Of a stretch of DNA of 52,456 nt, positions 25,419 through 52,019 are shown piece after piece. The translations under genes were made by a program, and so were the position numbers. Numbering within the stretch: position 1 is the first letter of the stretch; the number at the start of each line of letters is the position of its first letter. This DNA is from Catajapyx aquilonaris. Its lineage: Eukaryota. The stretch is taken from positions 1 to 52,456 of the forward strand of contig JYFJ02002699.1 in NCBI GenBank assembly GCA_000934665.2, given 5' to 3'. Under the pieces are notes generated by a model that saw nothing but the letters and a program-made list of their open reading frames with translations, did not search any database and was not told the DNA's origin.

Positions 25419-28400
25419 TCATTCTTCGTCCGAGTCGCCATCGCTGGACGACCCTTGCACTGGTGCTGATTGGATGTAAGGGGCGGATGTAATTTGCCTG
25501 CAAGGAAGACAAAAAAATACCGCAGGTCAGTCATGAAATCATGATAAAAATTAGGCCGTAAGCATTAGGTCTTTCTCATGCAACCATAATTCGTTCAGGT
25601 TGGAGAATACATACGCTAGTCTCCTGTAATGATTCAGCCACTCCTCCACCATCTGGGCAACAAGCAACGGCCTCTTATGGAGCCTCTGCTGGGCAACCAG
25701 AATGCCGCCCTCAGTCACGCACACGTCCAGCCATTGACGCAGGATCATCTCTTCCCTGCCAAGCTGTCAAAAGACGAAATAAAATAAAATCCTGATCGCA
25801 ACTAGTGTTGTAAAGGCTGAGGGGGGAACCTGCCTTTTTGGAGAGTCCAAATACCGCAAAAATATGAAATATGAATAAATTTTTTCGATATATGACACAG
25901 CATCAACCAAGTGCAGGCGTTTTTCATAAAACACTTGGGGGAAATAATTGTGAATGCTCTCTTATTTTGTATAGGCTTTTTAGCCGGTGAAATGAATAAA
26001 AGTATCACAAAAGATTCTACCAAATCACTGCAATATGGACTCTTTTTGGCCTATCATTTGACAAAATATCCGCACGGAAAACACTGTTGATGCAGTGACT
26101 GGATCCTTCGGGGAATCTTCAAGCAAAGAACCAGAATCAAATGCAGTGTTAATATTAATAATTTGACTTTTCTGAACATAAGGACTCCATAGTGTGCATA
26201 AAAAGCCCAAAAAACTGCGAAAAAAGTAAGGAGATAAACCCTGTTTTTTCCAGCAGTCAAAATTTCCAGCTTTTTTACAACACATGATGAAAAGTTCAGC
26301 CTGATTCTAAACCAGACACTTTTCATTTGATGCGCTTATTCGTGACACATTAAAACATGTTGAAAACATTTACCAGTAAATGTAATGATAATTTAACATA
26401 GTGAAATATCTAATGAAAAATACCATCATTAACTGTGTATGTGGAAATTTCATGATACAAGTTTCTTACTTCTGCCTGGCTGAGGAAATGCACGGGGAGG
26501 ACCTTCCCGTCGTGTCCCATGAGCGGAAGGAAAGTAACTTGCATCTCCTCTCCCTGCGGATCTTTGATGGGAGCTCCTGCGCCAAGAGGATCGGCGCAAG
26601 TGTACGGCTCCATTGCCACCAGGGCTGAGAAGTGACCCCTGGTGTAACCCAGGGCCACGGGTGACCTCCAGCAAAAGCTCTGCTCCCACAGTAAGGGAAG
26701 GTAGACCCCCTCGAAGCGTGCGTATCCAAGAGCCTCCCCTCTGAAGCTCTTCACGTACTTCACCCCATACACTATTATTGGCCTGCGTAGGACATGCGCC
26801 ATTGCGAACACGTGCAGCTGCTCCAGGGATGCACCAGGTTGGCTCGCCAGCTGCAACAGGCCAGTCCAATCCTCCTCCCATTGGCTCTCCTCCAAGGTGA
26901 AATCTAGGGTCCGCGCCTGGATAGCCTCGTACTCCTTCCAGCGCGGGTAAAATGCATGGCCGGCGTCATGGAGGCTGCCAGCCAGGGCACGGCGCATCGT
27001 GTTGTCACGATCAAACACACCCCAAGTGGCCTGAGGGACAGGTTTTCCCAAATTAACACGACACATAATTTTCACCCAAATCTGATGTATTTCTAATCAA
27101 CTACTGACCTGCAAAAGAGAGTCGAGGAGGCAATCCCCAGCTGTCCTATTCCACAGAGCATACAGCCTCGATCCCAGCCTTTCCACAATCTCCAAGCTCC
27201 AGTTGACAATGGGCGACTCAACCTCCAGCTCCTTCTGTGCGTCCCTGTCTAGAAGTTCGTCATACAGCTGCTCCTGGACACGGGGAGGAAGCTCCTCGAT
27301 GTCGGCAGGAAGGGAGAAGGTGGTCAGATCCGTCACAAAGTGGCAGGGGAAGTGGCCTTTGCGCTGCCTCACCCCTGCACCCACAGCACGCCGAATGTCA
27401 CCCGCAAGGTCAGGGGCTATGTAAGATGGGACCCGCTTCACTCCAGGACCGCCACCGTCTATTTGGGAGAGAAGGGTCGCCAGCAGGTCCTGGAAGAAAC
27501 AGTGCATGTTGCAATGAACACTTCCCAAATGGCGGCACTGGAAATTACCTCTCGGTGGAAACGGATTGCAAGGTGGACCAGAGTGTGACCGGAGTCAAAT
27601 GCAGATGGCCGGTTTAGCACCGCGACCTCCGAGGAGGTGAGCTGCCTGGTGGGGTCGCCACCAGAGGTCAGGTACGCCTCGACAGGGTTTGGGTCACCAT
27701 CCACGACCCCCAGGCAAGCATTGAGCCAGGGCCAGTCCGCGTCTCTCAGCCGCCTACGCATCACCCTCAGACGCTTCTCCTGCTCGTAGTTGTTGGTGTG
27801 ATGGATCTGATTCTGATCCTCCCACTGTTCATCCGCTGTTGAGAGAGGATTAGCCGGCGGAGGTGCCACAATGACCCCTCCCTCCGCCCCTCCTACGGCC
27901 CCTCCCATCTGCCGGGACAACTGGCACATGACGCATTTGGTCGAACGTGGCCAGTTCTCATATGTGCATGCAGGGCAGGTCCACTTCAGGCTGGCGCAGG
28001 AAGAGGTCATTGGGGTCACTGTGGTTGCGCAGGAGGCAGGCATGGTAGCAGGGGTGATGGTGATGCTGGTGGTGGGAGGAGTGGCAGGAGAAGAAGAAGA
28101 GGGAGAGGGTGATGATAAGTTGCAAATGATGTGGTTGTTTTCAAGCTCCTTTGTCGTCGGCTGGAATAACAACAAAAATTTGTTAATAGCGATTCATAAT
28201 GATAATGCCTACAAATACATGTCCAAAGTTAAGTAACACAATCATTCTGCTTGTCCGCAAGGTGAATAAAAATATGCCGCCAAACATACTTTGTTATGTC
28301 CGTTACTTCCCAATGTACCAAAAGGGCAATTAGGTGAATGTATGGTCGGGATAAATCTGAAGAAATACTGGCTATAATTGCTACCTTTTGCAATTTTTTC

Positions 28401-29583
28401 GCAACGTCCCACCTCTCAGCTGTATCTCACATGTACTATCATGAGATGAGCTTATAGCATGATCGAGACATACCTTCCATTGACGTGATCGGACACACCC
28501 CATCCAGGACAATATCCGTTTGTGTTTATACATTTTGCCATTATCATTGTTCATTGCTATGCAGCTTGTTCGTAGCCATACATACCACACAATATTACAA
28601 TTTGGTTCTACCATAACCTATGTATTACTATTTTTTTTGCTGATGATAGTGATTTCACACCCTGACACTTGGTTTTGCACAATAACACGAAATAATTCAT
28701 CTCATCTCATAGGAAAACGAAAGCATCTTGGGACTTTTCTGCACATGGCACAGTCGATTTTGTTGTACAGATTTCCAAATATTGCGAAGAATCCTATTGG
28801 AAATTCCTGGCATGACTAATTAGTCTACATTGAAATCCTCAAAACATTAAATCAGCATCACTGATGAGTCTCCAATGGAGCATTAAAAAATGAGAGACTC
28901 ATCAGTGATGGTCTTTTAATGTTTTGCGGTTTACAGTGTAGCCATCAATTAGACTTCAATTAAAGATGTTATACAGCACATTCAATTCTACGGCTGGCGC
29001 TCCTCCCCAAGATTGCATCTGATATGCACTACTAATTGCCACCGAATGAACGACTTCCTCCAAAGAGCTACATTATCTACTAGCAAACTGGAGAGAAATT
29101 ATGGGGGCTCACTGGTGAATTCTGAACGAGGCTGATCCTGAGTGGCTGCAGTTCCTTGTGCAGCCCCTTAGCTGTCTCCCTCCCGTTGTTGCTGCCTGTC
29201 GTGGCAGTCTCCGCGGCGACCTTCTTCCTTGGCGACAAGCATTGGGCGCAGTGGGTTCGGTTGTGGCCGGAGGAGGACGGGTTCAGGTAGGTGCATCTGT
29301 GGCAGGCCCACTTGGATGAGGATGGAGGGAGGGGCGGAGGAGGAGGAGGAGGAGGCGGAGGAGGTGGCGGGTGAGGCGGGGACGGCGGGGTTATGAGCAG
29401 CCCTCCTCCTCCTCCTCCCAATCCCCCTCCTCCTCCGCCCCCTCCTCCGCCGCTCTCCTCCTGCTGCTGCTGCAACCGGTAAATGTCGGCCGGCTTGGAT
29501 CCCCTGCACATGGTACACTTGAGTGACGACGGCCAGTTCTGGTAGGTGCATTGTTGGCAGACCCACTTCTTGTCTTCGCTCAT
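25419..29583 (-). CDS. trabid: Ubiquitin thioesterase Trabid/ZRANB1 (3 NZF zinc fingers, AnkUBD, OTU domain); exons 29583-~29089, 28160-27549, 27489-27109, 27030-26470, 25763-25615, 25497-25419
   Basis: NZF motifs KWVCQQCTYQNWPSSLKCTMC, KWACHRCTYLN...HCAQC, KWTCPACTYENWPRSTKCVMC. AnkUBD YLTSGGDPTRQLT...GHTLVHLAIRF. OTU catalytic LWNRTAGDCLLDS and LGYTRGHFSALV. Acidic end RRLAQITSAPYIQSAPVQGSSSDGDSDEE with stop TGA 25419-25421. Confidence 0.95.
28826..28940. mobile_element. Degenerate foldback MITE in a trabid intron
   Basis: TA-CATTGAAATCCTCAAAACATTAAA...CATCACTGATGAGTCTC pairs with GAGACTCATCAGTGATG...TTTAATGTTTTGCGGTTTACAGTG-TA. Confidence 0.6.
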
Positions 29584-32500
29584 TGTTGTGGCTGGGAAGG
29601 TGGGTCTTCTTGGTAATTATGATGGGTTGAAAGGGAAGGGGGGTAAGGCCATAAAAAAATAGTGATGTAAATAAATAGCAAAATATGATGGAGGGGGTGC
29701 TGTGGGTGCTTACAGGGGAGGAGGAGGAGGGGGTTGCAGGAGGGGCAGTCAATGTCAAAGGTACGTTGGGAGGCCGACCACGTTCATTGGCACCTTGACG
29801 TGGGGCGGTGAAGGAGGAAGGTGAGGGGCGACGACCAACCACATCCGAGGTCGCCTCAGGCACCTTAAAAGAAATGCAGAAACAATCAGTTTAAACATGC
29901 AATACTAAATGCAAATCTTAAAAACTGCAACATTTTTCATTGGAGTGTAGGTTACTTCCCCATCCCCTCAATGGGACTTAACCAGAATACATTGGTTATT
30001 CTCATGTATAAAATGGCAATGCACCTTGCCTCATTATGCATGGAGTCGATCAAGTATCTGACAGGCTTTTGACATTGACATCAAAACAATTCTGACAGAA
30101 AACAACATGCATAAAATGTTGACGAACCAAATCAATACTAAGAAATTGTACCGGCAGCCCCAGTTTTATTGTGTTTCCATTAACGACCTTTCCACAATTA
30201 CCTTAAAAAATTAATAACATTGAATAGAACTAGAACAATTTTTTTTTGAAGTGCCAAGAGTTTTAATGTGAATGACATTACTTCTTGAAAACTCTATGCG
30301 ATCAGGTGTTATGACAGCACAACACTCAGATAGCCACCATTGTGCACAGCCCCCTTTCAACATACCGTTCTATTGTTGTAACTCAGACTGTAATGTGCCC
30401 CAAAAATTCCTGACACACTTCCAGGATAACTAGGAAACTGTGGACATTTTAGTGCACAATATGCGGAATTATATTCTCACCGACTTTTCTTCGAAGCTGT
30501 TGATTACAGCTCTTTTTATATTCACAGCCTGACTCGAATAAAATTAGAGGCTCAGCTGAATTAATCAAAATGACTGCAGAGTAACACGTGAACACAACAA
30601 CTGCTCCTCTTTCCGCAACTCATCCTGAATCCATCTATTGCATATCTCAGGGCATCACCGATTTAAAATCTTTTCAGAAAGTAATTCGTCACCATTTGTT
30701 TACATGTACAGATATTAACATGAGTCAACACAAATGTAGTGTCATGCAGCATGCAAAATAGCTATCCACAAAGCCTGCGCGTCTTTTTTTTGAAGTACAG
30801 ATGCATACTCTTATAATTGCATAGACAATGAACTACATTTCTGTCTGGATTATTTCTGATGCTCATACGTGACTATGATGACGACGCAGCTGTTTGAACT
30901 CTTCGAAGCGACAGCTCGCATGGCCCCTATTTCCTCCTTCGTAACAAGTCACATCTGTCATTCTTTTTCTTCAAGTGAGCAACTGAATTATTACCGTCCC
31001 GAATACTATCATCCGGAAAAACAACCAGGACATTCCAACTCACCCTGCACTGCTTTCCACTCAACTTTGAGCGTCCTAAGGACTTGTGCACGACACCAAC
31101 ACGTAACAAGTTGCATTTGATGTGCACAACTTATGCCAACTGCTGGACTCGTGCCCTACGCTTCTTTTTTTTCTTTCTTTTCTTTCTGTCTATTCCTCGC
31201 ACCCTTTTTTTTTCTCTCTCTCTCTCACAAGGGTCCATCCTTGTCCTTGGCTACTACCCGCTATTTATAAACTCCCTTCAACTTTTCACTCCCAAGGATA
31301 CTCAAGCCACAACAATACGACCCCCAAACTTTAATTGAGACGGGCCAATAGAAATCGACCCATAAATTATCCCTGCCCTCTATTGAAGTCGCATGTTAGG
31401 CTTTCAAAGCGCAACAATACTCGTAAGGTCATAGTGCGCTCTATGTAATCTCGGACTCTATTACTACAATCAAGCAACAATGCCGGTTGATCGCTGACAG
31501 TTGCTCATGTAACATCACGCTCCAGCGCATTATTGCTAATTGTAATTACACCATTATTTTTTGATAATGTGCCGATCATCGCCGACTACCCCCTTATAGT
31601 TGTTGTAATTACCAAGCGCACGTTTCTACCGAACAATTGCTTCCCACACCGGCCTGCGTCGTTACCGACAACCGTGCTGGTCCATCGCAGCATCTTCCGC
31701 TACATTCCGCAGCGACGCTCCAGCATTCCCAAACAATACAAATCCAGACAGAAATGGGCATTAATTTTTTCTCTAATCATGAACTCAACAATGGTGTGTG
31801 TGTGAGAGAGTCAGAAAGGTGGCCATTGTTGCCCCCATTTCCCCCCCCCCCTCCTCTTCCTCTCTCTCTCTCTCTTTCCCCATCCCCCCCTTCCCCACCA
31901 TTCCTTTCCACCCCAAATCATGCACAACAGTGTCACTACACGATGCACACCACACAACAATGGTAAGTGCCCCAACAATGAGGGGAGTTTAAAGAAAATC
32001 GTTCCTCACAGGAGTTCACAACAAAACCTTCAGCTGCACCAGAAAACATTACGTCACGAAGGAAAAAGGGGGGGGGGGTAAATTGAGGGGGAGGGGAGGG
32101 GGGGAGGGAAGAGAGAGAGAGAGAGAGAGAGCGCACCTGGTGGATAGAAGAGGAACTAGTGATGACAATAAGTTTTTTTTGGATAGGAATGTAGTTTAGG
32201 AGCTGTTTGGACAGATGGCGTATGTGGATGGATGTGCGCATCTGGTGGCGGATATTTGGACTACTTACTTACTTGAAGTACCCACAGTACAGTACAGTTA
32301 ACGGAACCTCTGTCAGCACGTGTCGAAGCGCAACTGTTTCGTAACCTCACATTTTTTTGGGGGGGATGCACAGCCAAAAATACATGGACGCGACCGGGTT
32401 TTCGCAACCAAAAGCGCGACAAAATCAGTACGCTAACTGAAAACAGTTGGGTTCTGTTCCGCCAGGTGGCAGCATCATCCCCCCCCTGGATAAATTTACA

Positions 32501-32643
32501 TGTGGTAGTTCCCCTGCGTCTAATTGGCTGTCAACTGTATAATCCTCGGCTGCTATTGGCTATCGGATAAGTCCCGCCAACGGTCGTGGCTTGGCCTTTC
32601 CATTGCACATGTAAACTTTCGAACATTTTCGGGCCGATCCAAG

Positions 32644-35600
32644 ATGGCGAATGTTCGGGACAGCGACACTTCTCTTTGGCTTCACAACAAGCTGGGAACA
32701 TCGAACGACTCGTGGACAGGAGGATCCATATGCTCACAGCTCAACACGGAAGTACTCAGGAAGATCAAGGAGTGCTTCGTGGACCTGCAGACGCAAGTCA
32801 AGCTCAAGCTGCTGCTTTCGTTCTTTCACATACCCAGGAGAAACGTTGAAGAGGTCAACAACACAGCTTTTTTAAAAAAAGGCTGGGAATTAATTACTTT
32901 AGAAAGTCTTTAACTAAATTCTTTATTGCAGTGGAAGGTAGAATTGGAGGAGATTCTGGAGGTGGCTTTGATGGATGGAGATCAGTGGGTGTGTATGCTT
33001 TCGGAGGTTCTCAAGACCTTTCCGAGCACGGGCAACCTGAACATGGAGATCCAGGAGCCGGAGGACAGCAGAAGAATTTTTCAGGACCTCATTAATGACC
33101 TCAAGAAGTCAGGTGTGACCACTTGGTTCATATCACTTAAAAATAAGTCGTACACATGTGCGTAAATCATGGCTTTAATGTCATTTCCTTTACGTATGGG
33201 TGCAATGAGAAAATTTAGAATTTTTCAGAACCTAATTAATTGCCTGAAGGTGTCAGGTGTGACCATTAAAAATTTGGGTTCAGATCATTTAAAAATTATG
33301 CGTTACACATGTGCGTAAATGATGCTGGATGGCGTTAATGGCAATCTATGATCATTTCCTTTAATGTATGGGTGCAATCACAAAATTGAGAATTTTTCAG
33401 GACCTAATTGCCTGAAGGTGCGACCATTTTAAATTTTGGTTCAGATCATTTAAATATTATGCATTACACATGTGCATAAATGATGTTGGATGGCTTTAAT
33501 GGCAATATATCATTTACTTTACGTTTGGGTGCAATCACACATGCTTTTTCAGGGCCTAATTAATGACCTAAAGAAGTCAGGTGTGATTATTAAAAAATTT
33601 CGTTCATATTGTACAAAAAATATGCATTACACGTACATGTGCGTAAGTCATGCTGGATTGGCTTTAATGCTAATCTTATGACCTTTTCCTTTGCTTACAG
33701 GCTCAATCACATGTTTATTAACCTGATCATGTGCAATTAACAGACTTTGCATATAACGTGAAGGTAAATAACTGATTATCATCATTTTTTCGGCAGTGAA
33801 AAAGCACTGTGAGCAAGGGATGCTTCCGACGGAGTGCCTGTACTTAAACAAAAATGCACTGATCAGCGTGGTGGGCCAGCAGGTGAGCAACCCTTTAAAT
33901 TTTGGGATGTGTTGGCAACCGTGTTTTGTTTGGAACATTTTGCTGATGAGAACCCATTTTTGTAGAGCCAACCAGCAAAGCACTTCACTCTGAAAAGGAA
34001 GCCCAAGTCGGCCGCATTACGAGCTGAGCTCTTGCAGAAGTCGGCCGAGGCTGCCACCAATCTCAAGAAGAATCTGGTCCCTACTGTTCCAGTCAGGTCT
34101 AGAGGAATGCCTAGGAAGATGACAGACACTAGTAAGTATACAGGGATGGATTAGATTTTTATCATACATTGCAAAAATGTACACGTCAACAATGATTGAA
34201 GTTGCCATGCACTTGTAACAGGACAGTATGATGTAATTATTTATTTTTTTGACAGTGCAACAAATTATTATCTTCTGTGCAAATTCTTGCTATTCTGGTG
34301 GTTCAGATAGGCATAATATGCTGGCAATGCATTTTTGTTCATACATGACATTCAGTGCGTTGCTTTTGTTGGGAAGGATTTGTGTGCAGACATTCTGGCC
34401 TGCGTAGGGAAAAATACGTGGTGGGAAAAATTTGTCAGGGATGGTTGCCATGAAAAATAATTTCAAACAAAATTCCATCACAGAAAGTTCCGAGTGTTTC
34501 CCATTGGTATGATTCCGTTGATGGAAGTCATAGTGGAGCTGGATGGTTTGGAATGTGTAGTATTCAAGGGGGAACTCAATCTCCTCTGTTGCTATGGAGA
34601 ATTCTGAGAGTAAGATTGGTGTGGGGTTCTGACCTGACTGACTTCACACTTGTTGACGAAACTAATGTCACTTGCATACGCTATCTAAATCCCGTCTAGG
34701 CAACATGTTTTCTAATCTTTGCGAAGGAGTTGGCTATACCATGCAGTGTAAAATTATGTTCACAAGCTTACAAGCCCAAGATGATAATCATGCCTTTCAC
34801 GCAGCTCCACTGAAAGGCATCCCCAGTCGTGTCCCAACGAGTGGCTTCCGCTCTTCTCCTGCATCTGGCAACGCCTTGTCACGCCCCTTATCGAGGACAC
34901 CTGCAGGCAAAAAGGAAGGTGGAGTGAAACTGTTGGACATTAACGAGCAGCCACTGGGATACGCCCAGGCCCGCAAAAGAAAGAGGCAGCAAGAACTTGA
35001 GGCTGCAGCTGCCGCTAAAAAATCGGCAGTGGAAACACCCCAGGCTGGCCAGGCCCAGACAGCAGGCCAGCAGGGGAACCAGGTGCAGCCACCAGCAACA
35101 CCAGCGCCACAACCAGGGCAAACCCCAGATTACGCTGCCGGTTTGGTACCAAGCAACCCACCTACTCCTGCTCCGGTGGTTCAAGTTTCGACACAGGCTC
35201 CAGCTGCCACTCCTGTGACTCCGCCAGTGTATGTGCCAGCATCGGCAGCACCACTTCTGCCGCCACCAACTCCAGGCAGGGTGAGCCCTGTGCAAAACAG
35301 CGTTGCTCCCACCACACCCAACACTGGGGCAGTGCAGTACGTACAAGCAACACCACCTGCTACGGTTGCAACGGTCACCATACAGACCGTGCCACAGGCA
35401 ACAACGCCAACCACATCACCAACACCCACACCCACAAGTCAGCCCACCAATGTCATCGTGCAGCAGCAACAGCAGGGTGCCCAGGTGCAAGGACCTGCAG
35501 GAAAGAAGACGTTGCAGCTCACGGTAGGGCTTCTTAACTCTATTTTCATCAGCAATGTTTTGTTTGAACTGTAGGATATCTGAGCTGTCCGGGAAAAACC

Positions 35601-36024
35601 CATTTGCTTTTGTATCAGTCACGTTTTTGAAAACATCCTGATTAAATACGTTTGTGTATTTTGCAGAGGGAACAAATGTTGGAAGCACAGAAAATGTTCA
35701 GGTCAGCCAACCGAGTCACCCGACCAGAGAAGGCTCTTATCCTTGGTTTCATGGCTGGATCGCGAGGTGCGTATATTGGCTTACTCTGTTTCACTTCAGA
35801 TCGCCATTCACACATCTCCTTTGCTCTTTTGTGTAGAAAATCCTTGCCCGCATCTGGGTAACATAGTGACCATCAAGCTTAGTGAGAATCAAGAGAATGT
35901 CCAGCAACAGGACTCGACCTTCCTCACTATGGTGGTGGAAACACACTTCCAAATGAACTATAACACAGGCGAGTGGAAAAGGATCAAGAAGTTTCGCCGC
36001 ATGGAGGAAAACACAACTGCTTAA
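32644..36024 (+). CDS. NELF-A: Negative elongation factor A; exons 32644-32853, 32932-33112, 33797-33882, 33966-34131, 34805-35523, 35667-35766, 35837-36024
   Basis: MANVRDSDTSLWLHNKLGTSNDSW...LQTQVKLKLLLSFFHIPRR; MLPTECLYLNKNAL; KHFTLKRKPKSAALRAELL; GVKLLDINEQP; C-terminal REQMLEAQKMFRSANRVTRPEKALILGFMAGSRENPCPHLG...MNYNTGEWKR. All GT-AG and in phase. Confidence 0.96.
33073..33715 (+). repeat. Four diverged tandem copies (~145-170 bp) of the NELF-A exon 2 3' end + donor + intron start
   Basis: Units begin near 33073, 33217, 33389 and 33545 with TTTTTCAG(G/A)ACCT..., followed by AGGTG(T/C)GA, TACACATGTGC(G/A)TAA, GGCTTTAATG and TATGGGTGCAAT. Confidence 0.85.
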
Positions 36025-37045: not shown

Positions 37046-39278
37046 ATGAGTGATTCGCAGGTGAATCGGCAGCGTTATGTGACAATATTTGTGTACATGT
37101 CGTTATTACTGGACAATGCTCTACTGACAGTCGTTGGTGAGTAATTACCCGATTTTTTTCTGGGCTGTTTCCATATAATTGGTGCAATTTGTGCCAAATT
37201 GATGTCCATTCTTGCGCAAAATTGCAATCTCTCCTCCCCTTTTGTGTCAGACGAGGGGATCAAATTACATCTTCCAAATTGGATTGGCTCGTTTTACCTT
37301 TCTCTCTCTCTACAGTTCCGATCCTGCCAGACTATCTCCTGGGTCTGGAGATTGAATCAGACAGATTTCTCCAGCTCCAGCAGAACAACGGGACACTAGA
37401 TGCATCTGGAGAGAACGGTCGAATGGGCCTGTTGCTCTCGTCCAAAGCTCTGGTTCAGTTGGGGGCCAACCCAATCATCGGTTGCCTGACAGGTCATCTG
37501 GGTCACCTACTGCCTCTATTCGCCGGAAGTGTCCTTTTGGCCGCCTGCGCTCTTTGTACGTCACAAAATTAATGGTTCCAGGGATGGTTTTGACCTAAAC
37601 GATGTTAAAGTGAAAATTGAAGCAATATTTTCTCCTAATATGCTTATTCTCTCCGTCTGATGTTTGTCCGACATGATAGTACTACTATCTCTCGCACGAC
37701 TTGAGTGGCAGTCTGTGAAGCGGTGTGAAGACGGGTTAAGCGCCATCTATGCTTGATGAATAGTACTAGGTGGTAAATCGGCGAGTCGTCTCATTAATCA
37801 CTGTCATACTTATTACATATTTTGCCAAATTTTGGCAACGGGTTCAGTAGTATCCACAGAAATATATTATTAAACTACTCCGCACTCTCAGTAGTCAGAA
37901 AGTGCGTTAGGTAGCCCGGACATACAAAGAAACTTTCTGATTTATTATGTAAGATTGAGATTTGTAAATTTGCTTCTAGTGTTTGCTGCTGGGACGACGT
38001 TTGAGGTGCTTTTGATTGCCAGAAGCCTCCATGGTTTGGCGTCTGCATGTGTGGCTGTCGCTGGTATGGGCGCTGTTGCTGAGAGCCAACCGGAAGAGGC
38101 GGCCCGTGGGCAGGCCCTGGGGCAAGTGCTGAGCGGGGCAGCAGCCGGAGTCCTTCTTGGATATCCTCTTGGTGGATTCCTGTACGCTGCATCCGGAAAA
38201 GTCACACCTTGTCTGTTGTTATCAGCTGTAGCTGCAGCTGATGCAGGTAATGAGTTGTTGGTTGGCTATCTTACAGGATGTACTAACACTAGTTATTGAA
38301 GGCTTGCAGTTGGTGATCCTCCGTCCTGCAGCTACTCCTCAGGTAAGTTCATACACTGTCAGCTTTTTTTTTTACGCTGACACATTTTGCAGGTTGTACA
38401 GGACACACCATCAGCTTGGATGTTACGTGATGTCCATGTGCTGCTGGTGGCCGGTGCCATCTGTGTCAGCACCATTGCCATGGCTGTGCTGGAACCATGT
38501 CTTCCACTCTGGCTCATGGACACACTCCGACCACCTGTACGTATCATCAGGAGTTTTTAAAAACATGAGGTATGATTAATGGACGTACTTGGTATATAGA
38601 AATGGGCATTTGGACTGGTGTTTGTGCCGGACAGCGTGGGCTACCTGTTGGGTACAAGTTGCATGGGAGGAGTGGCCTTCAGAGTTGGCAGATGGAAGGT
38701 GGCCTTGGCTGCTTTGCTCCTAGTCGGATGCTGCTCCCTGTTGGTCAGACACTACAAAATTCCAGCGTGCACTTTGTTTGGTATGTGTCACATCAATATT
38801 TTTGTATTGCAGCTGCCGGAAGCCCGTGCTTTTTGGCAACTGACTGGTCCTCATCTGGGTCTGGGCCTTGGCATTGGGGCAGTCGATGCAGCTCTGATTC
38901 CTCTTCTGGCTTCTCTGGTGGATCGACGAGGAGCTCATGGGGCGTACGGATCGGTCTATGCCTTTTCGCAAGTGGCCGTTGCGTTGGCCTACAGTCTTGG
39001 TATGACCACACTGGCCGGTACACAGACGTCGGATGCTCAATGTCGGATGTCTTTCAGGTCCGATGCTGGGAGGCCAGCTGGCTAGAACCATCGGTTTCCC
39101 CTGGCTGATGAGGCTGGTTGGGATACTCAACCTGGTCTACTCTCCATTGCTCTTCTGTCTGAGAGACACGGAGCGTGCCAATGACGAAGGACAGCAAGAG
39201 GAAGGGATACTCTTGGGGATACCTCGTCGACGACCAGAAGAATACGAGAGGTTCGAGGACGAGCAGGATGATTGTTAA
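37046..39278 (+). CDS. prt: SLC18 vesicular transporter (MFS), portabella-like; exons 37046-37136, 37316-37555, 37980-38246, 38302-38342, 38393-38536, 38600-38743, 38813-38999, 39058-39278
   Basis: SLC18 motifs YMSLLLDNALLTVV|VPILPDYL, ENGRMGLLLSSKALVQL, ARSLHGLAS, GVLLGYPLGGFLY, LEPCLPLWL, FVPDSVGY, GIGAVDAALIP, YGSVYAFSQ, IGFPWLM. Gln replaces the TM11 Asp of VMAT/VAChT (YAIAD), as recalled for Drosophila Prt. SLC18 assignment is strong; prt orthology is moderately strong. Confidence 0.85.
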
Positions 39279-43750: not shown

Positions 43751-44660
43751 GTTACTCAAAATAAAAATCTTTTCATAATAAAGGACGATGATTTTGGCTA
43801 TACGACGACCGCGAAGGCTCATAAATCACTGCACTCTAACAACCTAGAGTGTGTAACAACGTGACAAAACTACACGTCCATTAATGAGAACATCGTTCCA
43901 ACTTGGAGCTACGCCAAATGTAGGCTAGTGTATCATCAGTTTATCACAAAAACAGGTGTTCGTGCCAGGGAAGAAATGAACCCTTAGTAGTAGTACCTGT
44001 ACAGTAGTATGCTCTTAGACGGCGATTGAAATCTTGTAAGCCTCGGGCGACTGATCAGTTATTCCGAGTGCGTAGAAGACGAGTGCAGTATATCCAGATC
44101 ATCAACCTCATCCTACCACTTGCACTTTCATTCGGATATTCAGAATTTATAACGCACATTTTTGCAAGCACAACAAATTAAAAGGAAAGTGCCACTTTAT
44201 AGCAAATATTGACACAAATAATATTAAAGGTGATGCTAAAATTCCGTCGGTTAATTCTTGGAATACGTTTGCAGTTGTATTACCTTTTCCTCAGAAAATT
44301 CGCACGTAAAACAAGTTCCTTTCATTCTCGTACCACCACGCCCAGTAGAAAACCGGGCACAAAATAACATGGTTTCAGGCAGCACACGATAACTGTAAAT
44401 TCGCCTTCCTGTCTGCCACCGAAGATATTAAAATGCTAATATATGACAGATTCAAAAAACCTTTCGCTTTTAAAATTCGCAAGAGTTGAGCCAGTTTTAT
44501 ACGTGTACATCGGAATTTCGGCAATGCCCCGTGCGAATTTTATGGTGGTTGTTTTTCTGCCCGGAGTGACCTAAGAGGAAGCAAAAACAGGAGGAGACAA
44601 AAAGCGGCTTCAAGGCTTCCAATACGTGCCCCCCTGTTGTAGCACCTTCTTCCATGAAGG

Positions 44661-44887
44661 CAACTGGAGCACCTCTTTTTCCCTGTCTCTCGAGAAGTGT
44701 GTACCGCCCCCGAGATGAAGGGGCAAAACCTTGAAGGGCCCCGCTTGTCCCATACGGGCCAGCGGGATCCAGAAGAAGGCGGGATTGGGTCCTGGACAAG
44801 GACGAAGCCACAGCCACGATGGGGTATATAAAGATGCCGGGAGCTTTTCCAGAACCATCGACAAGGCACACTCAGCCTTTGGATCAC
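44661..44887 (+). promoter_or_regulatory. Promoter of cuticle gene 1 with TATA box (TATATAAA 44825-44832)
   Basis: TATA about 100 nt before ATG 44922. The block is clearly homologous to 49259-49476 (CAACTGGAGCACCTCT, AAGAAGGCGGGATTGGGTC, GGGGTATATAAAGATGC, CAGCCTTTGGATCAC). Confidence 0.8.
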
Positions 44888-44921
44888 ACTCAAAAAAGCA
44901 CCACCTCCCCACTTCGCAACA

Positions 44922-46271
44922 ATGAAGCTTTTGGTAGGTTTCAAGCTGCAAATTGTTTGGTGGGGATTGTTGGCTTAACAATGCTCGTTTTCCAACAGGT
45001 CATCCTCTCTCTGGTGGCGGCCGCACACGCCGGCTTCCTGGGCGCCCCTGCTGTCCATCATGCAGCCCCATTGGCTGCTGTCCATCATGGACACGGATAC
45101 GCAGGCCCCATCCATGTCCCAGCCATCGTCGGAGGATTCGTTGACGAGACCCCTGAGGTGAAGGCCAACAGGGCTGCCCACTTCGACGCTCACGTCCAGG
45201 CCAACCACCGCAACGGATTCGGACACGCTGTTGCCCACGGTGTCGCCCACCACGGTGTTGCCGTCGCTGCCCCTCTTGCCCACCACGGACACGCTTATGG
45301 CGGTCCCATCCATATCCCCGCCATCGTCGGAGGCTTCGTCGATGATACCCCTGAGGTCAAGGCCAACCGTGCTGCCCATCTTGATGCCCATGTCCAGACC
45401 AACATCCGCGAATACGGAATCGCCGGTGTCGGTGTCGGACCTGCCCTGCCCGGACCCGTCGTGCACGCCCCTGTCGCTGTCGCCCATGGTTTCGCCCATG
45501 GTCATGGCGTGGCTGCTCCTCTGGCCCATGGATTCGCCCATGGACACGGCTATGCCCATGGACATGGACACGGCTACCACGGCCCCCTGGCCATCCCCAC
45601 CGTCGTCAACGGCCATGTCATCGACACCCCCGAAGTCGCCCACGCCAAGGCTGCCCATTTCTCTGCCCACGTTGAGGAGAAGGCCCGTCACGGAATCATC
45701 CTCGGTGAGTGACGGTATGCACTCACTGGTTAGCAACGTGCTAATATACTTACTTCAAATTACAGGCCGCAAGAGGCGCAGCCCCGGATTCGTCGGTGCC
45801 CCCGTTGCCCACGGCCATGCTGTTGCCGTCGCTGCCCCTCTTGCCCACCACGGACACGCCTATGGTGGCCCCATCCATATCCCCGCCATCGTCGGAGGAT
45901 TCGTCGATGATACCCCTGAGGTCAAGGCCAACCGTGCTGCCCATCTTGATGCCCATGTCCAGACCAACATCCGCGAATACGGAATCGCCGGTGTCGGTGT
46001 TGGACCTGCCCTGCCCGGACCCGTCGTGCACGCCCCTGTCGCTGTTGCCCATGGTTTCGCCCATGGTCATGGTGTGGCTGCTCCTCTGGCCCATCATGGA
46101 TTCGCCCATGGACACGGCTATGCCCATGGACATGGCTACCACGGCCCTCTGGCCATCCCCACCGTCGTCAACGGCCACGTCATCGACACCCCCGAAGTCG
46201 CCCACGCCAAGGCTGCCCACTTCGCGGCGCATGTTGAGGAGAAGGCCCGCCATGGTGTCTTCTTTGGTTAA
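44922..46271 (+). CDS. His/Ala/Gly-rich secreted cuticular protein precursor 1 (18-residue motif type, no R&R domain); exons 44922-44933, 44999-45704, 45766-46271
   Basis: Typical 4-codon first exon MKLL| then signal VILSLVAAAHA. Five copies of the cuticular 18-aa motif (xDTPEVxxx[KR]AAHxxAH), AAP[LV] repeats and an internal GRKRR site. Confidence 0.88.
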
Positions 46272-49258
46272 ATATTTAAACTAAATAAAAATTGCAAAAC
46301 CCGCAAAAACACGATTAAAAAAGAGACGAACGAACAACGGACGACGCTTGTACAAAAAAGACTTTATCTAGTAGGACGTAGTATTTCAGAAAAAGAAACG
46401 CAAAAAAAAAATGTACCACCTGCAGACGAGGATGACAACCAGCTTCCTTCTTGCTTTCAATGTATAAGTGGCCAGCTGCTCCGATAATGTATTAATGTAT
46501 TTGTGAACAATGGTTGAAAAAATCCGCAAAAAAATAAAGTATGACAAAATATATCCAAGGTCGAATTTTTCCGAGAGAATGGTAACCTCTACCTGCTGCA
46601 TGCCTAAACGCCCTTATAAAAGCATTGTAAATGTTACCTCCGAAAGATATGTTTCCTAGCGATCAAGGCCGAGCTTGAAGGTCCTTGATACCAAGACACA
46701 CAGCTGCATAGCTAAACACGAGAGGAGTCAAGGTTTATCCTGAATTGTTAGGCAACCAATCAGACTCCTTTGCTCGCATGAACGCATGGTCAACAGGAGC
46801 AATAATTATGGGGACTCTGTGAGAGCCTCAACTTGATTTTCGAGTTTTTTTCTATATAAATTTTTAAATGGTACTTGCTGCGGCGTGCATGCAATTAAAA
46901 TATGCAAAACATAAGGTAATCATGAGAGTTCGCAATCGAGTAAGTTTCTTTTTCAGCACTAGTCATATTATAGATTGATGAGAGCTGTATCAGAGTGATT
47001 GCAACTAGATTTTTTTCCATTGTAATTATTGGTAAGAGCGATGGTGCAATTTTTGTATAAAACAATTGAGAGTCATAATACGAAAATTTTGATTTCAAAG
47101 TATAGCGACACACTCATATTACTAAAATAATTGCGTATAAAATAAAAACTACCGTAGGTTTTTCGTATCAGCAGAAACGGTTTAATATTTTCCCAATAAA
47201 TATCTTATTGAGGTTTGTACCCTCATACTTCCTCTACATATCCGTGTGCAGATCATATCGATAACTTTATCCGTTACAAAAAATATTCACATTTACATTT
47301 GGCACAAAGTCATCCCCCGCTCCCTGACGATATTCAGAGTGCCGAAAATAGCTTTAAAATTGTACCCTGTTTAGAGATAAGATTAGCATGAACCTTACGT
47401 AACAATCGTGAGGCAAAATCGTGACTTGTAATTGCACTAATATCAAAGCAGAATTCGTGACATGTACTGCAGGTCTAATGGATGGCTAATTAGAGAGTAT
47501 AACACAAAACCATATTGTAATAGTAAGCAGAGTTGTAAAGAAAGAATGCTGAGTCCAAACGTGTTAGTAAATGAGCGATAATTACTTTAATTACAAACAA
47601 TCAGAGCTTGGCGACAAAATTATATGAGCAGTGAATACATTACTTCGCGCGTATAATTATGGAATTCGATATTTTCAAATTGATAATCAAAATCTCTTTT
47701 GGAGAAAACTATTTTAGGCGTAACGCTATTCAAATGTTACGAAACTGAAATCATTGAAGATGTTATTCATTGTGCAATGGGGTTCAAGGCGATCCATGAC
47801 TGCTTTTTTGTGCATTATTCTGGAGGATGTGGCGAAATAACCCCCCCAAAGAAATCACTTTTAAAATATTCCCCTCGTTATGTACAAGGCCAGAAGTAAC
47901 AGTCATTCAAAGGGAAAACCCGTAAATTCTATTAGTATATAGTTGCGAATTCACCCCCACAACTGCTTGATTCAGAGGAATGTGCACTTGCTTTTATTGT
48001 TACTTCCAATACTTATTATTTTGAGTGTAAAATGACGTAAAATTATCTGTGGAATTTAATGTGCTGCCAAAATTACGCCAATTGCCAGGGAGCAGTGTAA
48101 TCCTGCCAGGTAAGTTTCTCTAATAATAATAATTTGAATCCTAGGTTTTCATACCAATCGGTCACATTTTGGTTGAAGTTGAATTCCACAGCAGCATTGC
48201 GTAACAGAGTCGTACACTCTGTTATATGGTACAAAGTCACAAAATTTGAATAATGCCCTACAGATCAATGGCTCTTTACATACAATCTCACGTAAGTAAT
48301 CATTCAAGCCATCACACAGCATTTCATAATCATTCCAATGTGATTTTTATCGTTCTTCACTTCTACTGTATGACCTGTAATCTTCCAGAAAAATTGTTGA
48401 GAATCGATATTGGTTTTTGTTTTGTTTTCTGTAATGGGAGTAACTAGAGTAACTAGAAAGGAAACAAAACGATATTGTATAGTAGACCTGCGTCAGACGG
48501 ATGAAAAAAGACAACATATGGAAATCAGCATTCTTATACCGGTACTGTATCAGTAATGGAGCATCAAAGACTTTCCAATACATGTACTTCTTGTTTGGTC
48601 TCGATGGTCGATGGATTTATTCCGCATGTAATGAAACTTGTTCAGCAAGGTAAACTTTTCCTGGACGAAGCAAATCCATTACAGTTGCACATATTTCATT
48701 TTATTCTACGCCATGATTTCATTAAATTGCTGCATGGACCATGTGGACCATGTGATGCTCCGTTGAGTTACTCTGATGGTTTCATAAAATGAGAGCATTG
48801 TTCAGAAAATAATAATGCACACTTTTCGAATACAAAAACACAACACTTGGCATGTTTACATCCTTCGCCTGCACTGCAATGACTTGCAGCAAATTGCAAT
48901 TACCTTCGCAGGTTATTGTTTGAATACATCAGATAATTGACTTATAGTGTTGTCACATTCCTATGCACAACCAGTATATATGACTCCGCCGCAACCACGC
49001 CCATGCAGGAAACCAGAATCACCCAATATGTCGTCAATATATAGGCTAACTGTGAAGTTGATGCCCTCCTGAAGACCACCAGAGACATTGAGCCCCACCA
49101 TTATTAAAATGAACCGTTTTTGTGGCTCTATAGAATATTTAGGATTGAGGAACATGGATTTTTCCACAGTAATGTTATGCCCTCCATGGTCCATAAAGAT
49201 GCACATACAAACAATCAACCTGCCCTTCTCAAGGTTTTGTGCTGCATAACTTCCAGAG

Positions 49259-49476
49259 CAACTGGAGCACCTCTTCCCCCCTCTCTTTGAGAAGAGGCTG
49301 CAACGCCCTTTGAGGAAGGCGGAGGACCTTGAGGGCTCCGAAGGTTCAATCGAAACATCAGATCCAAGAAGGCGGGATTGGGTCTTGGGCAAGGTCGACC
49401 CTACAGCTAGGAGGGGTATATAAAGATGCTGGGAGCTCTCTGGAAGCATCGACAAGGCAGACAGCCTTTGGATCAC
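49259..49476 (+). promoter_or_regulatory. Promoter of cuticle gene 2 with TATA box (TATATAAA 49417-49424)
   Basis: Paralogous to 44661-44887; TATA about 80 nt before ATG 49495. Confidence 0.8.
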
Positions 49477-49494
49477 TCTCAGCCTCATCTCAAC

Positions 49495-50922
49495 ATGAAA
49501 CTCCTGGTAAGGTACAGGGTGGTGCAAGCTGCATTTGGATGTTGTGCTATAACACTTCTTCTTCTTCCACCAGCTCATACTCGCACTTGTTGGGGCCGCC
49601 GTGGCCAAGCCCGGATTTCTGGGTGCTGTTCATGCCCCAGTGGCCCACGGGCACTATGCTGGTCCCATCCATGTACCTAACATAATCGGAGGATTCGTCG
49701 AAGACACCCCTGAAGTTAAGGCTGCCAGGGCTTCCCATCTGGCTTCACATGGACATGGTTATGCTCATGGGCATGGTTATGCTCACGGGCATGATTATGC
49801 TCACGGACATGGCTACCATGGTGCTCTGGCCGTCCCCACCGTTGTTGACGGCCATGTCGTCGACACCCCTGAAGTCGCCCATGCCAAGGCTGCCCACTTC
49901 GCCGCTCATGCTGACGAGAGGGCCCGACATGCTCATGTTGCCCCAGTGGCTCACTTCGACGGACATTACGACGGACATTACGACGGCGGACACTACGCAT
50001 ACGCTGGACACCACGGATACGCCCATGGACACGGCTACCACGGAGCTCTGGCCGTCCCCACCGTCGTCAACGGCCATGTCGTCGACACCCCCGAAGTCGC
50101 CCATGCCAAGGCTGCCCATTTCTCTGCCCACGTTGAGGAGAAGGCTCGTCACGGAATCTTCTTTGGTAATATCACTTACTTTACAATGTGTTTATTGTTG
50201 ACCAATGCTCATCTGCTGTGGTCATTTCAGGCCGCAGGAAGCGCAGCCCTGGTTTCGTTGGCGCTTACCACGCTGGTGCCTACCACGCTGGTGCTTACCA
50301 TCATGCTCCCACTCATGTTGTCAATGGCTTCGTCGAAGACACCGATGACGTGAAGGCTGCCAAGGCTGTCCACTTCGCTGCCCATGCTGAAGCTCGCGGC
50401 CACGGACTCCACCACGGTGCCCACGGATACGCCCATGGACACGGCTACCACGGCCCCCTGGCCATCCCCACCGTCGTCAACGGCCATGTCGTCGACACCC
50501 CCGAAGTCGCCCATGCCAAGTCTGCCCATTTCGCCGCCCATGCTGAGGAGAACGCCCGACATGGATTCGGTCATCACGGATACGCCCATGGACACGGCTA
50601 CCACGGACCTCTGGCCATCCCCACCGTCGTCAACGGCCATGTCGTCGACACCCCTGAGGTCGCCCATGCCAAGTCTGCCCATTTCGCCGCCCATGCTGAG
50701 GAGAACGCCCGACATGGATACGCTCATCACGGACACGCTGTGGTTGCTGCTCCTCTGGCCCATCACGGGTATGCCCACCACGGGTACGCCCATGGAGCTT
50801 ACCATGTCCCAACCGTCGTCGGCGGTTTCGTCGATGACACCCCGGAGGTTAAGGCCGCCAAGGCATCGCATTTCGCAGCGCATGTCGACGAGAAGGCCAG
50901 GCATGGCATCATCTTCGGTTAG
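49495..50922 (+). CDS. His/Ala/Gly-rich secreted cuticular protein precursor 2 (paralog of 44922-46271); exons 49495-49506, 49574-50165, 50231-50922
   Basis: [15 protein letters not shown] signal peptide; seven 18-aa motif copies; GHGYAH repeats; internal GRRKR site; same exon structure as gene 1. Confidence 0.88.
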
Positions 50923-52019
50923 AAGACTGCTCAACATTCTCGGGGAATCTCCGTATAGAAAAATGGGGGAAAAAATTCTTCTTTAAAAATGGTAAAAAAG
51001 GTAGACGAACGAACTTGTACAAAGGACTGTCAGTAGGACTCTTAGTAGGACATTTTCATACGAAAATAGCAGACGAGGATGACAATTTGCTTCTTTCTTC
51101 ACGCTTTTTATGTATAGTATCTCTGCAATGCTCGTTGTAATGTATTTTTGTAAACATTGAAGGACAAAAAATCTACAAAAAAATAAACTAAAGATACATG
51201 TACATACCAATATCATACATTTATTTTGCCAACTACTCAACTCCCATACCAACAACAACTTTACGATCATGAAATCCAGAATGAAGGGTGAGATACATGT
51301 AATTTTATGGACCCATTTTAAACGGCAAGTGCATTGTTCGCTTACTGTGGTCGGAGCTGCAACGACAAAGCCCGCATTTTTATGAGACATTAATCCGCCT
51401 AATGCTCCTGTTGGAAAGGAAGATTATTATGCGAAGTGTGTTCCACCACGCCCAAGTGAAAAAAAACATCTCATCGTCCTTATATGGTATAGCCGGCTAA
51501 CTGTAAAGCTGCTCTCATGGAGTGTCACCAGTAATGTCACCTTATATTTGCATATAAGCCCACATCTGAATTTAAGGAAGTGGGAGCTTTCACTATTAAT
51601 TTGCGGCTCACAAACAAGCTTTGCTGATCTTATTTATTTTGACTGCTATCCTTAAAGGTGAGAATAAAGTTGCAGGGTGCGGAACAATAATTATTGTAGT
51701 GAGCTTTATGGCTTTATGAGTGTTGGCAAAGCATATCAATGGTGTGGTCTATTCAGGAAGAGGCTCGCCTGCTGAAGAAGGTGGAGGTCCTTGAAGGACT
51801 CCCTGCTGGTGCTGCTGGTTTCCATTGAGTAATCTGATCTAAGAATGCGAGATAAGAAGGAGTGATTGGGTCCCAGGCAAGGTCGAATGTGCGACAACAT
51901 GAACTTCAACCCACCGCTTATGCAAATTTGGTAATCACGACTCTCAAGAGCCATTGTTGTCGGGAGTCTTAAATTGCGCATTTAATTAATGGAAATTCAC
52001 AACAACCCCTAGCTGGTAT

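What the first reader, a model, noticed from the sequence alone, without database searches (positions are those of the whole stretch)
44922..50922. Cuticle-protein polyproteins with neuropeptide-style processing grammar (furin site, amidation Gly, X-Pro dipeptide)
Seen: after splicing, gene 1 reads signal|GFLGAP...[23 protein letters not shown]...EEKARHGVFFG* and gene 2 reads signal|KPGFLGAV...[23 protein letters not shown]...[11 protein letters not shown]. All four modules start (xP)GF[LV]GA and end KARHG-hydrophobic x3-Gly. Established: R-X-[KR]-R is the furin/proprotein convertase site; a C-terminal Gly, exposed directly or after carboxypeptidase trimming, is the PHM/PAL amidation donor; X-Pro dipeptides are removed by DPP-IV-type enzymes. 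Inference: each gene yields two mature structural proteins, possibly Leu/Phe-amidated and trimmed to a common GF[LV]GA start, meaning peptide-hormone machinery would be maturing cuticle proteins. Convertase-cleaved cuticle precursors are not unprecedented; the conserved amidation-type Gly on every module is the unusual part.
Basis: partly seen in the sequence, partly recalled or inferred. Interest (0 to 1): 0.72.

Follow-up and report, generated by a model that had tools for sequence, protein, structure and literature searches.

The report
Two-part cuticle proteins with hormone-like processing
Two arthropod exoskeleton genes each encode a pair of structural proteins joined by a protease cut site and carry the end-trimming signals best known from peptide hormones; each signal alone is common among relatives, the three together were seen only here, and none has been tested in this animal.

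Summary
They are 18-residue-motif (DTPEV) cuticle proteins. The furin site is not unusual: 85 of 276 relatives carry R-x-[KR]-R (5.2 expected), 65 with motifs on both sides, usually after Tyr, not Gly. X-Pro removal gains outside support: the Swiss-Prot locust protein LmNCP18.7 starts at GYL, exactly after the Lys-Pro of its 96%-identical Schistocerca precursors. The terminal Gly is also kept in 4 of 5 single-module paralogues in this genome and in 10 of 12 orthopteran clusters with tails of varying length, but in only 4 of 260 other relatives. Against: the four modules are not independent, the internal Gly is a split codon favoured by splice consensus, no RNA or proteomic data were available, and amidated cuticle proteins are already reported (recalled). 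Verdict: furin cleavage very likely (~0.85), amidation probable (~0.6), X-Pro trimming probable (~0.6). A new variant of a known kind; the under-described part is a family-wide processing pattern.

The parts
44825..44832 (+). TATA box of gene 1, with two CAAGG-core (FTZ-F1-like, consensus recalled) sites 28 and 97 nt upstream
   Evidence: the same arrangement in 7 of 7 family genes in this genome
44922..44933 (+). Gene 1 exon 1 coding part (start of the signal peptide)
44934..44998 (+). Gene 1 intron 1 (65 nt, phase 0, GT-AG), same position as in all paralogues
44999..45704 (+). Gene 1 exon 2: rest of the signal peptide and module 1 (starts GFLGA at 45032; three 18-aa motifs)
45705..45765 (+). 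Gene 1 intron 2 (61 nt, phase 1), splits the Gly codon; retention gives a stop two codons in
45768..45785 (+). Gene 1 furin-type site RKRR followed by the Ser-Pro dipeptide
45766..46271 (+). Gene 1 exon 3: module 2 (two 18-aa motifs), terminal Gly codon GGT 46266-46268, stop; AATAAA at 46284 and 46533
49417..49424 (+). TATA box of gene 2, with CAAGG-core sites 27 and 91 nt upstream
49495..49506 (+). Gene 2 exon 1 coding part
49507..49573 (+). Gene 2 intron 1 (67 nt, phase 0)
49574..50165 (+). Gene 2 exon 2: signal peptide, Lys-Pro dipeptide (49607-49612), module 1 with three 18-aa motifs
50166..50230 (+). Gene 2 intron 2 (65 nt, phase 1), same position as in gene 1; retention shifts the frame
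50233..50250 (+). Gene 2 furin-type site RRKR followed by Ser-Pro
50231..50922 (+). Gene 2 exon 3: module 2 (four 18-aa motifs), terminal Gly codon GGT 50917-50919, stop; AATAAA at 51182

Best explanation
Two tandem genes of the 18-residue-motif (cuticle protein 18.7-like) family encode His/Ala/Gly-rich secreted precursors. SHOWN in sequence: signal peptide, two homologous modules, one R-x-[KR]-R linker, a Gly closing each module, X-Pro before three of four module starts. INFERRED: in the epidermal secretory pathway a furin-type convertase cuts after the linker; a carboxypeptidase strips the basic residues; a dipeptidyl peptidase removes Lys-Pro or Ser-Pro so that all four products start GF[LV]GA; PHM/PAL turns the exposed Gly into an amide. 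The result is four proteins of about 16-23 kDa ending Leu/Phe-NH2. The polyprotein is thus a way to make, at 1:1 ratio, the same mature units that single-module paralogues make one per gene. The likely purpose (speculative) is an uncharged hydrophobic C-end that resists carboxypeptidases and packs or cross-links in hard cuticle. Step odds: splicing 0.95, furin cut 0.85, amidation 0.6, X-Pro removal 0.7 for Lys-Pro and 0.55 for Ser-Pro.
For: Gene models and the sole dibasic site. Intron 2 lies at the same place in both genes with diverged intron and conserved flanking codons. R-x-[KR]-R is in 85 of 276 relatives against 5.2 expected; 70 sites in 65 proteins have motifs on both sides, and in 41 of 70 the residue before the site equals that protein's own last residue, so the site marks a module end. 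Single-module paralogues with the same termini exist in this genome: 5 of 5 start xPGFLGA, 4 of 5 end NGIIFG-stop. LmNCP18.7 (P82165) begins at GYL directly after A-K-P of six 96-97%-identical Schistocerca precursors. Orthopteran relatives: 119 of 131 sequences and 10 of 12 clusters end in Gly (Gly content 8.7%), with tails of different length after Lys-Ala (KARLG, KAALLG, KAGHHLG, KARAGIFHG), so the Gly follows the terminus, not an alignment column. Gly-less members end at the equivalent of the pre-Gly residue (SGIIV, NGLIL). The terminal Gly is not a genome-wide habit: 11 of 21 CPR frames end in Tyr/Phe, 2 in Gly. PHM/PAM-, convertase- and DPP-IV-family genes are in the genome.
Against: No RNA or protein data for this animal. 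The four modules are recent or homogenised copies, so they count as perhaps two or three observations. The internal Gly can be explained by splice consensus alone. Most of the family does without it: only 4 of 260 non-orthopteran relatives end in Gly, 1 of 70 internal sites is preceded by Gly and 2 of 70 have Pro at P2'. One paralogue in this genome ends VFHH. The only mature-protein record I could fetch (P82165) is from a Gly-less member, so it says nothing on amidation. The orthopteran set was seeded with a Gly-ending query and is redundant. Enzyme genes being present is expected in any arthropod and shows no epidermal expression.
Confidence: 0.58

Rival explanations
1. Furin splits the precursor, but the Gly is kept: it is an inherited, structurally neutral or capping end residue, and the internal one is held by the splice sites. 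Products end in a free Gly acid.
For: Intron 2 splits the codon G|GC. Modules are homogenised. Most relatives use the furin site with no Gly (1 of 70). All six terminal Gly codons in this genome are GGT although GGT is 28 of 116 Gly codons in the two genes, which fits common descent as well as selection.
Against: Gly is kept at the very end in 10 of 12 orthopteran clusters with different tail lengths and preceding residues; neutral descent would not tie it to the terminus. By established enzymology PHM acts on most exposed C-terminal glycines wherever it is expressed (recalled).
Confidence: 0.27
2. The mature G[FY]L start is made by signal peptidase cutting after Pro, not by a dipeptidyl peptidase; second modules keep Ser-Pro.
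For: P82165 shows only where the mature protein starts, not which enzyme made the end. Gene 1 module 1 reaches the same start with no X-Pro. Only 2 of 70 internal sites in relatives have Pro at P2'.
Against: Ala-x-Ala before Lys-Pro fits the -3/-1 rule and Pro at -1 is rare (recalled; no signal-peptide predictor was run). X varies (K, R, E, S, A, T, N) while Pro is fixed. Both genes keep Ser-Pro behind the furin site, where signal peptidase cannot act.
Confidence: 0.25
3. The precursors are not cleaved, or intron 2 is not spliced, and each gene gives one chain.
For: No read evidence for the junctions; gene 1 with the intron retained would still give a near-normal single-module protein of 241 aa.
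Against: Exon 3 is intact, has no promoter, start or signal peptide of its own, begins with a conserved basic site in both genes, and retention frame-shifts gene 2. Spliced two-module forms with the same linker are common in relatives.
Confidence: 0.1

Closest known systems
18-amino-acid-motif cuticular protein family; LmNCP18.7 (UniProt P82165) and Schistocerca 'cuticle protein 18.7-like' genes such as XP_049956753.1
   Same: Repeated (P/V)xDTPEVAAA(K/R)AA(H/F)xAA(H/Y) motif (12-15 of 16 defined positions in 12 copies), signal peptide followed by xPG[FY]L, end in Lys-Ala-(Arg)-x-Gly-hydrophobic, terminal Gly in most orthopteran members.
   Different: The orthopteran members printed are single-module with no furin site; these two genes are two-module and much richer in His (15-17%).
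Two-module 18-aa-motif proteins of beetles, lacewing, whitefly and Daphnia (for example P0122 Nicrophorus, P0104 Chrysoperla, P0151 Bemisia, P0130 Daphnia sinensis, unnamed P0003)
   Same: Internal R-x-[KR]-R between motif-bearing halves; the half before the site often ends like the whole protein (41 of 70).
   Different: Their junction is typically His-Tyr, basic run, then Ser/Gly and an aliphatic residue: no Gly before the site (1 of 70) and rarely Pro after it (2 of 70), so no amidation or dipeptide signal.
Amidated insect endocuticle proteins (locust Abd-type RR-1 proteins; recalled from Andersen's protein-chemistry papers, not found in the library)
   Same: A structural cuticle protein with a C-terminal amide.
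   Different: RR-1 chitin-binding family, one protein per precursor; these genes have no R&R domain (no PF00379 hit).
Furin-processed nematode cuticle proteins (BLI-1 collagen, NOAH-1; PMC10233720, passages seen)
   Same: RXXR convertase sites in secreted cuticle structural proteins.
   Different: Unrelated proteins; the cut removes a pro-piece or anchor and does not release two like units.
Neuropeptide and antimicrobial-peptide precursors (convertase, carboxypeptidase, PHM/PAL, DPP-IV; recalled)
   Same: The same order of signals: Gly, basic site, X-Pro.
   Different: Products here are 160-225-residue low-complexity structural proteins under a cuticle-type promoter, not short signalling peptides.

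Membership tests
18-aa-motif cuticular proteins | One or more copies of (P/V)xDTPEVAAA(K/R)AA(H/F)xAA(H/Y) | tested here: met
   Consensus from PMC7497268 and PMC2542385 (passages); 5 copies in gene 1 and 7 in gene 2 match 12-15 of 16 positions
18-aa-motif cuticular proteins | Signal peptide and low-complexity Ala/Gly/His/Val composition without Cys | tested here: met
   Hydrophobic 15-residue leader judged by eye, no predictor run; Ala 20%, His 15-17%, no Cys or Trp
18-aa-motif cuticular proteins | Best database relatives are annotated cuticle proteins of this family | tested here: met
   Named hits are mostly 'cuticle protein 18.7-like' and 'pupal cuticle protein-like'
18-aa-motif cuticular proteins | Expressed in epidermis and present in cuticle | not testable with these tools
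   No expression or protein data; only the shared TATA plus CAAGG-core promoter layout
CPR (Rebers-Riddiford) cuticle proteins, including RR-3 | PF00379 chitin-binding domain | tested here: not met
   No PF00379 hit in the four large exons; no hit on this contig among 66 in the genome
Furin-cleaved polyprotein | R-x-[KR]-R between repeated units | tested here: met
Furin-cleaved polyprotein | Cleavage shown on the protein | not testable with these tools
   Needs proteomics
PHM/PAL amidation substrates | Gly at the C-terminus or before a basic cleavage site in a secreted precursor | tested here: met
   4 of 4 modules, 4 of 5 paralogues
PHM/PAL amidation substrates | Amide on the mature product; enzyme in the same cell | not testable with these tools
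   A PHM/PAM-like gene is in the genome; no mature record of a Gly-ending member could be fetched
DPP-IV-trimmed precursors | X-Pro at the exposed N-terminus, absent from the mature protein | tested here: inconclusive
   Present in 3 of 4 modules; absent from the mature locust homologue P82165; not testable for these proteins, and the enzyme is not identified
Neuropeptide precursors | Several short bioactive peptides flanked by basic sites | tested here: not met
   One site per precursor, products of 163-225 aa

The most novel reading that the evidence does not exclude
The 18-aa-motif cuticle proteins have an unrecognised, family-wide maturation code. Across insects and Daphnia, furin splits multi-module precursors into units with matched ends (65 of 276 relatives). 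In an old subfamily shared by this arthropod and Orthoptera, the epidermis also runs dipeptidyl peptidase and PHM/PAL on bulk structural proteins, giving a fixed G[FY]L start and an amidated hydrophobic end. These ends would be the assembly or cross-linking signals, processing would time cuticle hardening, and part of the moulting defects of convertase or PHM loss would be direct cuticle defects rather than hormone failure.
Probability: 0.3. Interest if true: 0.68.

Novelty: new variant of a known kind. Interest (0 to 1): 0.42.

Why it matters
Cuticle-protein catalogues treat each gene as one protein with only its signal peptide removed. If the reading holds, about a quarter of the 18-aa family examined here yields two or more proteins, and a locust-shared subfamily has trimmed, amidated ends that standard proteomic searches would miss. 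It gives a cheap test (re-search of locust cuticle spectra for ends 58.005 Da lighter than the gene predicts) and a direct route by which furin, DPP-IV and PHM could shape the exoskeleton. It does not reveal new chemistry: every step is a known secretory-pathway reaction.

Tried and rejected
RNA evidence: no RNA holder was listed for 44880-51200; this is no evidence either way, and no reads could be laid. Pfam: no family over its cut-off for the four large exons; weak Nebulin, G2F and GRP hits are low-complexity noise. Alternative acceptors at 45733 and 50237 would shift the frame and were rejected. Looking for a mature-protein record of a Gly-ending member: 30 clusters looked up gave one mature Swiss-Prot entry, P82165, which has no terminal Gly. 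A genome-wide liking for terminal Gly was rejected (30 of 66 CPR hits fetched, 21 with a plausible end, counted by eye). More family copies by a DNA pattern: 8 family ends already known plus 4 two-mismatch hits that look unrelated and were not followed. Literature: ten searches listed no paper on furin, amidation or dipeptide processing of 18-aa-motif proteins; term look-ups for amidation and/or furin found nothing relevant in PMC2222620, PMC13299641, PMC6794787, PMC7497268, PMC2542385, PMC13073896, PMC5377371, PMC12426002, PMC8839503 and PMC2990333. The primary cuticle protein-chemistry papers and Willis's reviews are not held, so absence from print is not established. The FTZ-F1 consensus was not found in PMC4535481 and stays recalled. 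The GFLG likeness to tachykinin-type peptides (recalled) was dismissed: it sits at the N-end of long modules. No structure or complex prediction was run; the proteins are low-complexity and it would not bear on processing. My starting odds for X-Pro trimming (15%) were too low and were revised.
Full report
1. What is in the sequence. The window is a whole contig (C1315) of a 286-Mb arthropod assembly. Joining exons by coordinate gives two intact genes on the + strand: gene 1, 44922-44933/44999-45704/45766-46271, 407 aa; gene 2, 49495-49506/49574-50165/50231-50922, 431 aa. All four introns are GT-AG and 61-67 nt. Each gene has a TATA box about 80-100 nt before the ATG and AATAAA after the stop. 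The second intron is at the same place in both genes, splits a Gly codon (G|GC), and has diverged while the codons after it differ mostly at silent sites. Retention stops gene 1 two codons into the intron and frame-shifts gene 2. Splicing is therefore very likely, but no reads were available to show it. RKRR and RRKR hold the only adjacent basic residues in each precursor.

2. What family. No Pfam family passes its cut-off and there is no R&R domain. The proteins carry 5 and 7 copies of the 18-residue cuticle motif, matching 12-15 of the 16 defined positions of the consensus given in PMC7497268 and PMC2542385 (passages seen; match). PMC10138643 and PMC13073896 list '18 aa' as a recognised family (passages). 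Named database relatives are mostly 'cuticle protein 18.7-like' and 'pupal cuticle protein-like'. PMC5377371 reports that locust NCP18.7 transcripts peak 72 h after the moult (passage). All 7 family genes in this genome have two CAAGG-core sites about 27-37 and 91-106 nt before the TATA box, against a window background of 0.55 per kb; these resemble FTZ-F1 sites (consensus recalled) and fit moult-timed epidermal genes.

3. Paralogues in the same genome. Contig C2865 holds five single-module genes. All five have X-Pro-GFLGA after the signal peptide (X = K, R, R, R, E). Four end NGIIFG-stop and one ends NGVFHH-stop. Three of the four are about 99% identical where compared. So the unit (xP)GF[LV]GA...K-A-R-x-G-hydrophobic-Gly is made both singly and in pairs, as expected if the pair is cut.

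4. The furin site is real but common. Of 292 proteins fetched have the motif (16 dropped). Of these, 85 carry R-x-[KR]-R against 5.2 expected from shuffles; 70 sites in 65 proteins have motifs on both sides. Named carriers include many beetles, Chrysoperla, Bemisia and Daphnia sinensis. In 41 of 70 the residue before the basic run equals the protein's own last residue, usually Tyr. The sequences are related, so these counts are not independent events, but they show that cutting a multi-module precursor into like-ended units is a family-wide design. It is not peculiar to this window. What differs here: Gly precedes the site in only 1 of 70 relatives and Pro follows at P2' in only 2 of 70.

5. 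X-Pro trimming has outside support. A cluster look-up returned the Swiss-Prot entry P82165 (LmNCP18.7, 193 aa, no Met or signal peptide; that it was sequenced from purified cuticle protein is recalled) with six Schistocerca precursors of 213 aa. The locust sequence starts at GYL, exactly after Ala-Lys-Pro in precursors 96-97% identical to it. Of 131 orthopteran sequences, 124 have xPG[FY] near the start; so do 22 of 260 other relatives, two of them probably chance matches. X varies and Pro is fixed. The simplest route is signal peptidase after Ala and a DPP-IV-type enzyme next; a cut after Pro by signal peptidase is the rival and is disfavoured by the -3/-1 rule (recalled; no predictor run). 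That both genes keep Ser-Pro behind the furin site, where signal peptidase cannot act, favours the dipeptidase, but trimming of module 2 is untested.

6. The terminal Gly. For: it is kept at the very end in 119 of 131 orthopteran sequences and in 10 of 12 clusters at 70% identity (5 of 7 at 60%), against 8.7% Gly content, with tails of 5-9 residues counted from the last Lys-Ala. It follows the terminus, not a column. Gly-less members (SGIIV, NGLIL) end where the others would end after losing Gly. It is not a habit of this genome's cuticle genes: of 21 CPR frames with a plausible end, 11 finish in Tyr/Phe, 2 in Gly and 3 in Gly plus basic residues (30 of 66 hits fetched; counted by eye). Against: that orthopteran set was seeded with a query I chose because it ended in Gly, and it is redundant. 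Only 4 of 260 other relatives end in Gly; most of the 276 end in Tyr (133), Trp (57) or His (18). The four modules here are not independent: gene 1's halves are 95.7% identical over 446 nt, and the ends of the two first modules differ at 2 of 31 synonymous codons. The internal Gly is also what a phase-1 intron with consensus flanks tends to give (recalled). No mature record of a Gly-ending member turned up in 30 cluster look-ups. The genome encodes a PHM/PAM-like protein (E 5e-23 to solved PHM), convertase P-domain genes (6 matches) and DPP-IV-family genes (14 exon matches), which is expected in any arthropod.

7. Mechanism. Most likely: signal peptide removal; furin-type cut after the linker; carboxypeptidase trimming; dipeptide removal; PHM/PAL amidation; secretion of four His-rich 16-23 kDa proteins into hardening cuticle. 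Only the signals are shown; every enzymatic step is inferred. Odds: splicing 0.95, cut 0.85, amidation 0.6, trimming 0.55-0.7, all together about 0.4. Why the ends matter is speculation: an uncharged hydrophobic end could resist carboxypeptidases and aid packing or His-based cross-linking. A side inference: all six terminal Gly codons in this genome are GGT followed by TAA/TAG, and both second introns start at that G|GT, gene 2's reading GTAATAT like the end of gene 1. The intron may therefore have arisen from the stop region of a single-module ancestor; this was not tested.

8. Against what is known. Convertase sites in cuticle proteins are known from nematodes (PMC10233720, passages). C-terminally amidated locust endocuticle proteins and DPP-trimmed insect peptides are known to me from recall only; the primary papers are not in the library. 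Ten searches (listings and abstract starts seen) and term look-ups in the papers named under Tried and rejected found no description of furin, amidation or X-Pro processing in the 18-aa family; a 2025 review has none of those terms (PMC12426002). Since subscription papers are missing and no supplements were read, this does not show that it is unpublished. Earlier scan notes had nothing on this sequence or idea; one unchecked note suggests a non-insect hexapod affinity for the genome, which would make the Gly shared with locusts very old; I did not test the lineage.

9. Verdict. A real feature and a true member of the 18-aa-motif cuticle family. Within what I examined, the furin layout is shared with beetles and Daphnia, the X-Pro and terminal Gly with Orthoptera, and the full Gly-basic-Ser-Pro junction occurs only in these two genes.

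Noticed in passing
window 51444-51886 (+): A degenerate third copy of the gene 2 upstream region (CCACGCCC box, CAAGGTCGA site) that stops just before the TATA box, with no coding part; probably the relic of a third tandem gene, near the contig end.
   Followed up: partly
window 44253-44892 and 48914-49481: The two promoters align over about 600 nt with conserved blocks (CCACGCCCA, GCAACTGGAGCACCTCT, AAGAAGGCGGGATTGGGTC); two CAAGG-core sites at fixed distances from TATA recur in all 7 family genes.
   Followed up: partly
G000:C2865:3133-16135 (L019, L020): Cluster of five single-module paralogues; three are near-identical tandem copies; the inverted one ends in His-His instead of Gly and is a natural non-amidated control.
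   Followed up: yes
window 1943-4976 (-): AMP-binding-domain gene (PF00501, E 1e-58) with a downstream domain that by recall looks like ebony (NBAD synthase, cuticle tanning), 40 kb from the cuticle genes; probably incidental.
   Followed up: partly
window 26410-29616 (-), 32524-36024 (+), 37895-39085 (+): An OTU-domain gene with zinc fingers (trabid-like, name recalled), a NELF-A-like gene (recalled) and an MFS transporter lie between that gene and the cuticle genes.
   Followed up: partly
L058, L066, L069, L047, L063 (CPR genes of G000): Five of 21 R&R-domain frames end in Gly or Gly plus basic residues (YGRR, GRR, TGK, QRG, YHG), so some unrelated cuticle proteins here may be amidated too; ends not confirmed as true termini.
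   Followed up: no
P0182, P0183, P0248 (database relatives): Longer polyproteins of this family with three or more repeated basic cleavage sites (KR-SP in P0182; RSKR/RLKR in P0183; RRWKR in P0248).
   Followed up: no
G000:C5330, C4163, C12834, C596: Several tandem copper-monooxygenase (PF01082) exons, apparently an expanded MOXD/TBH-like group; not classified.
   Followed up: no
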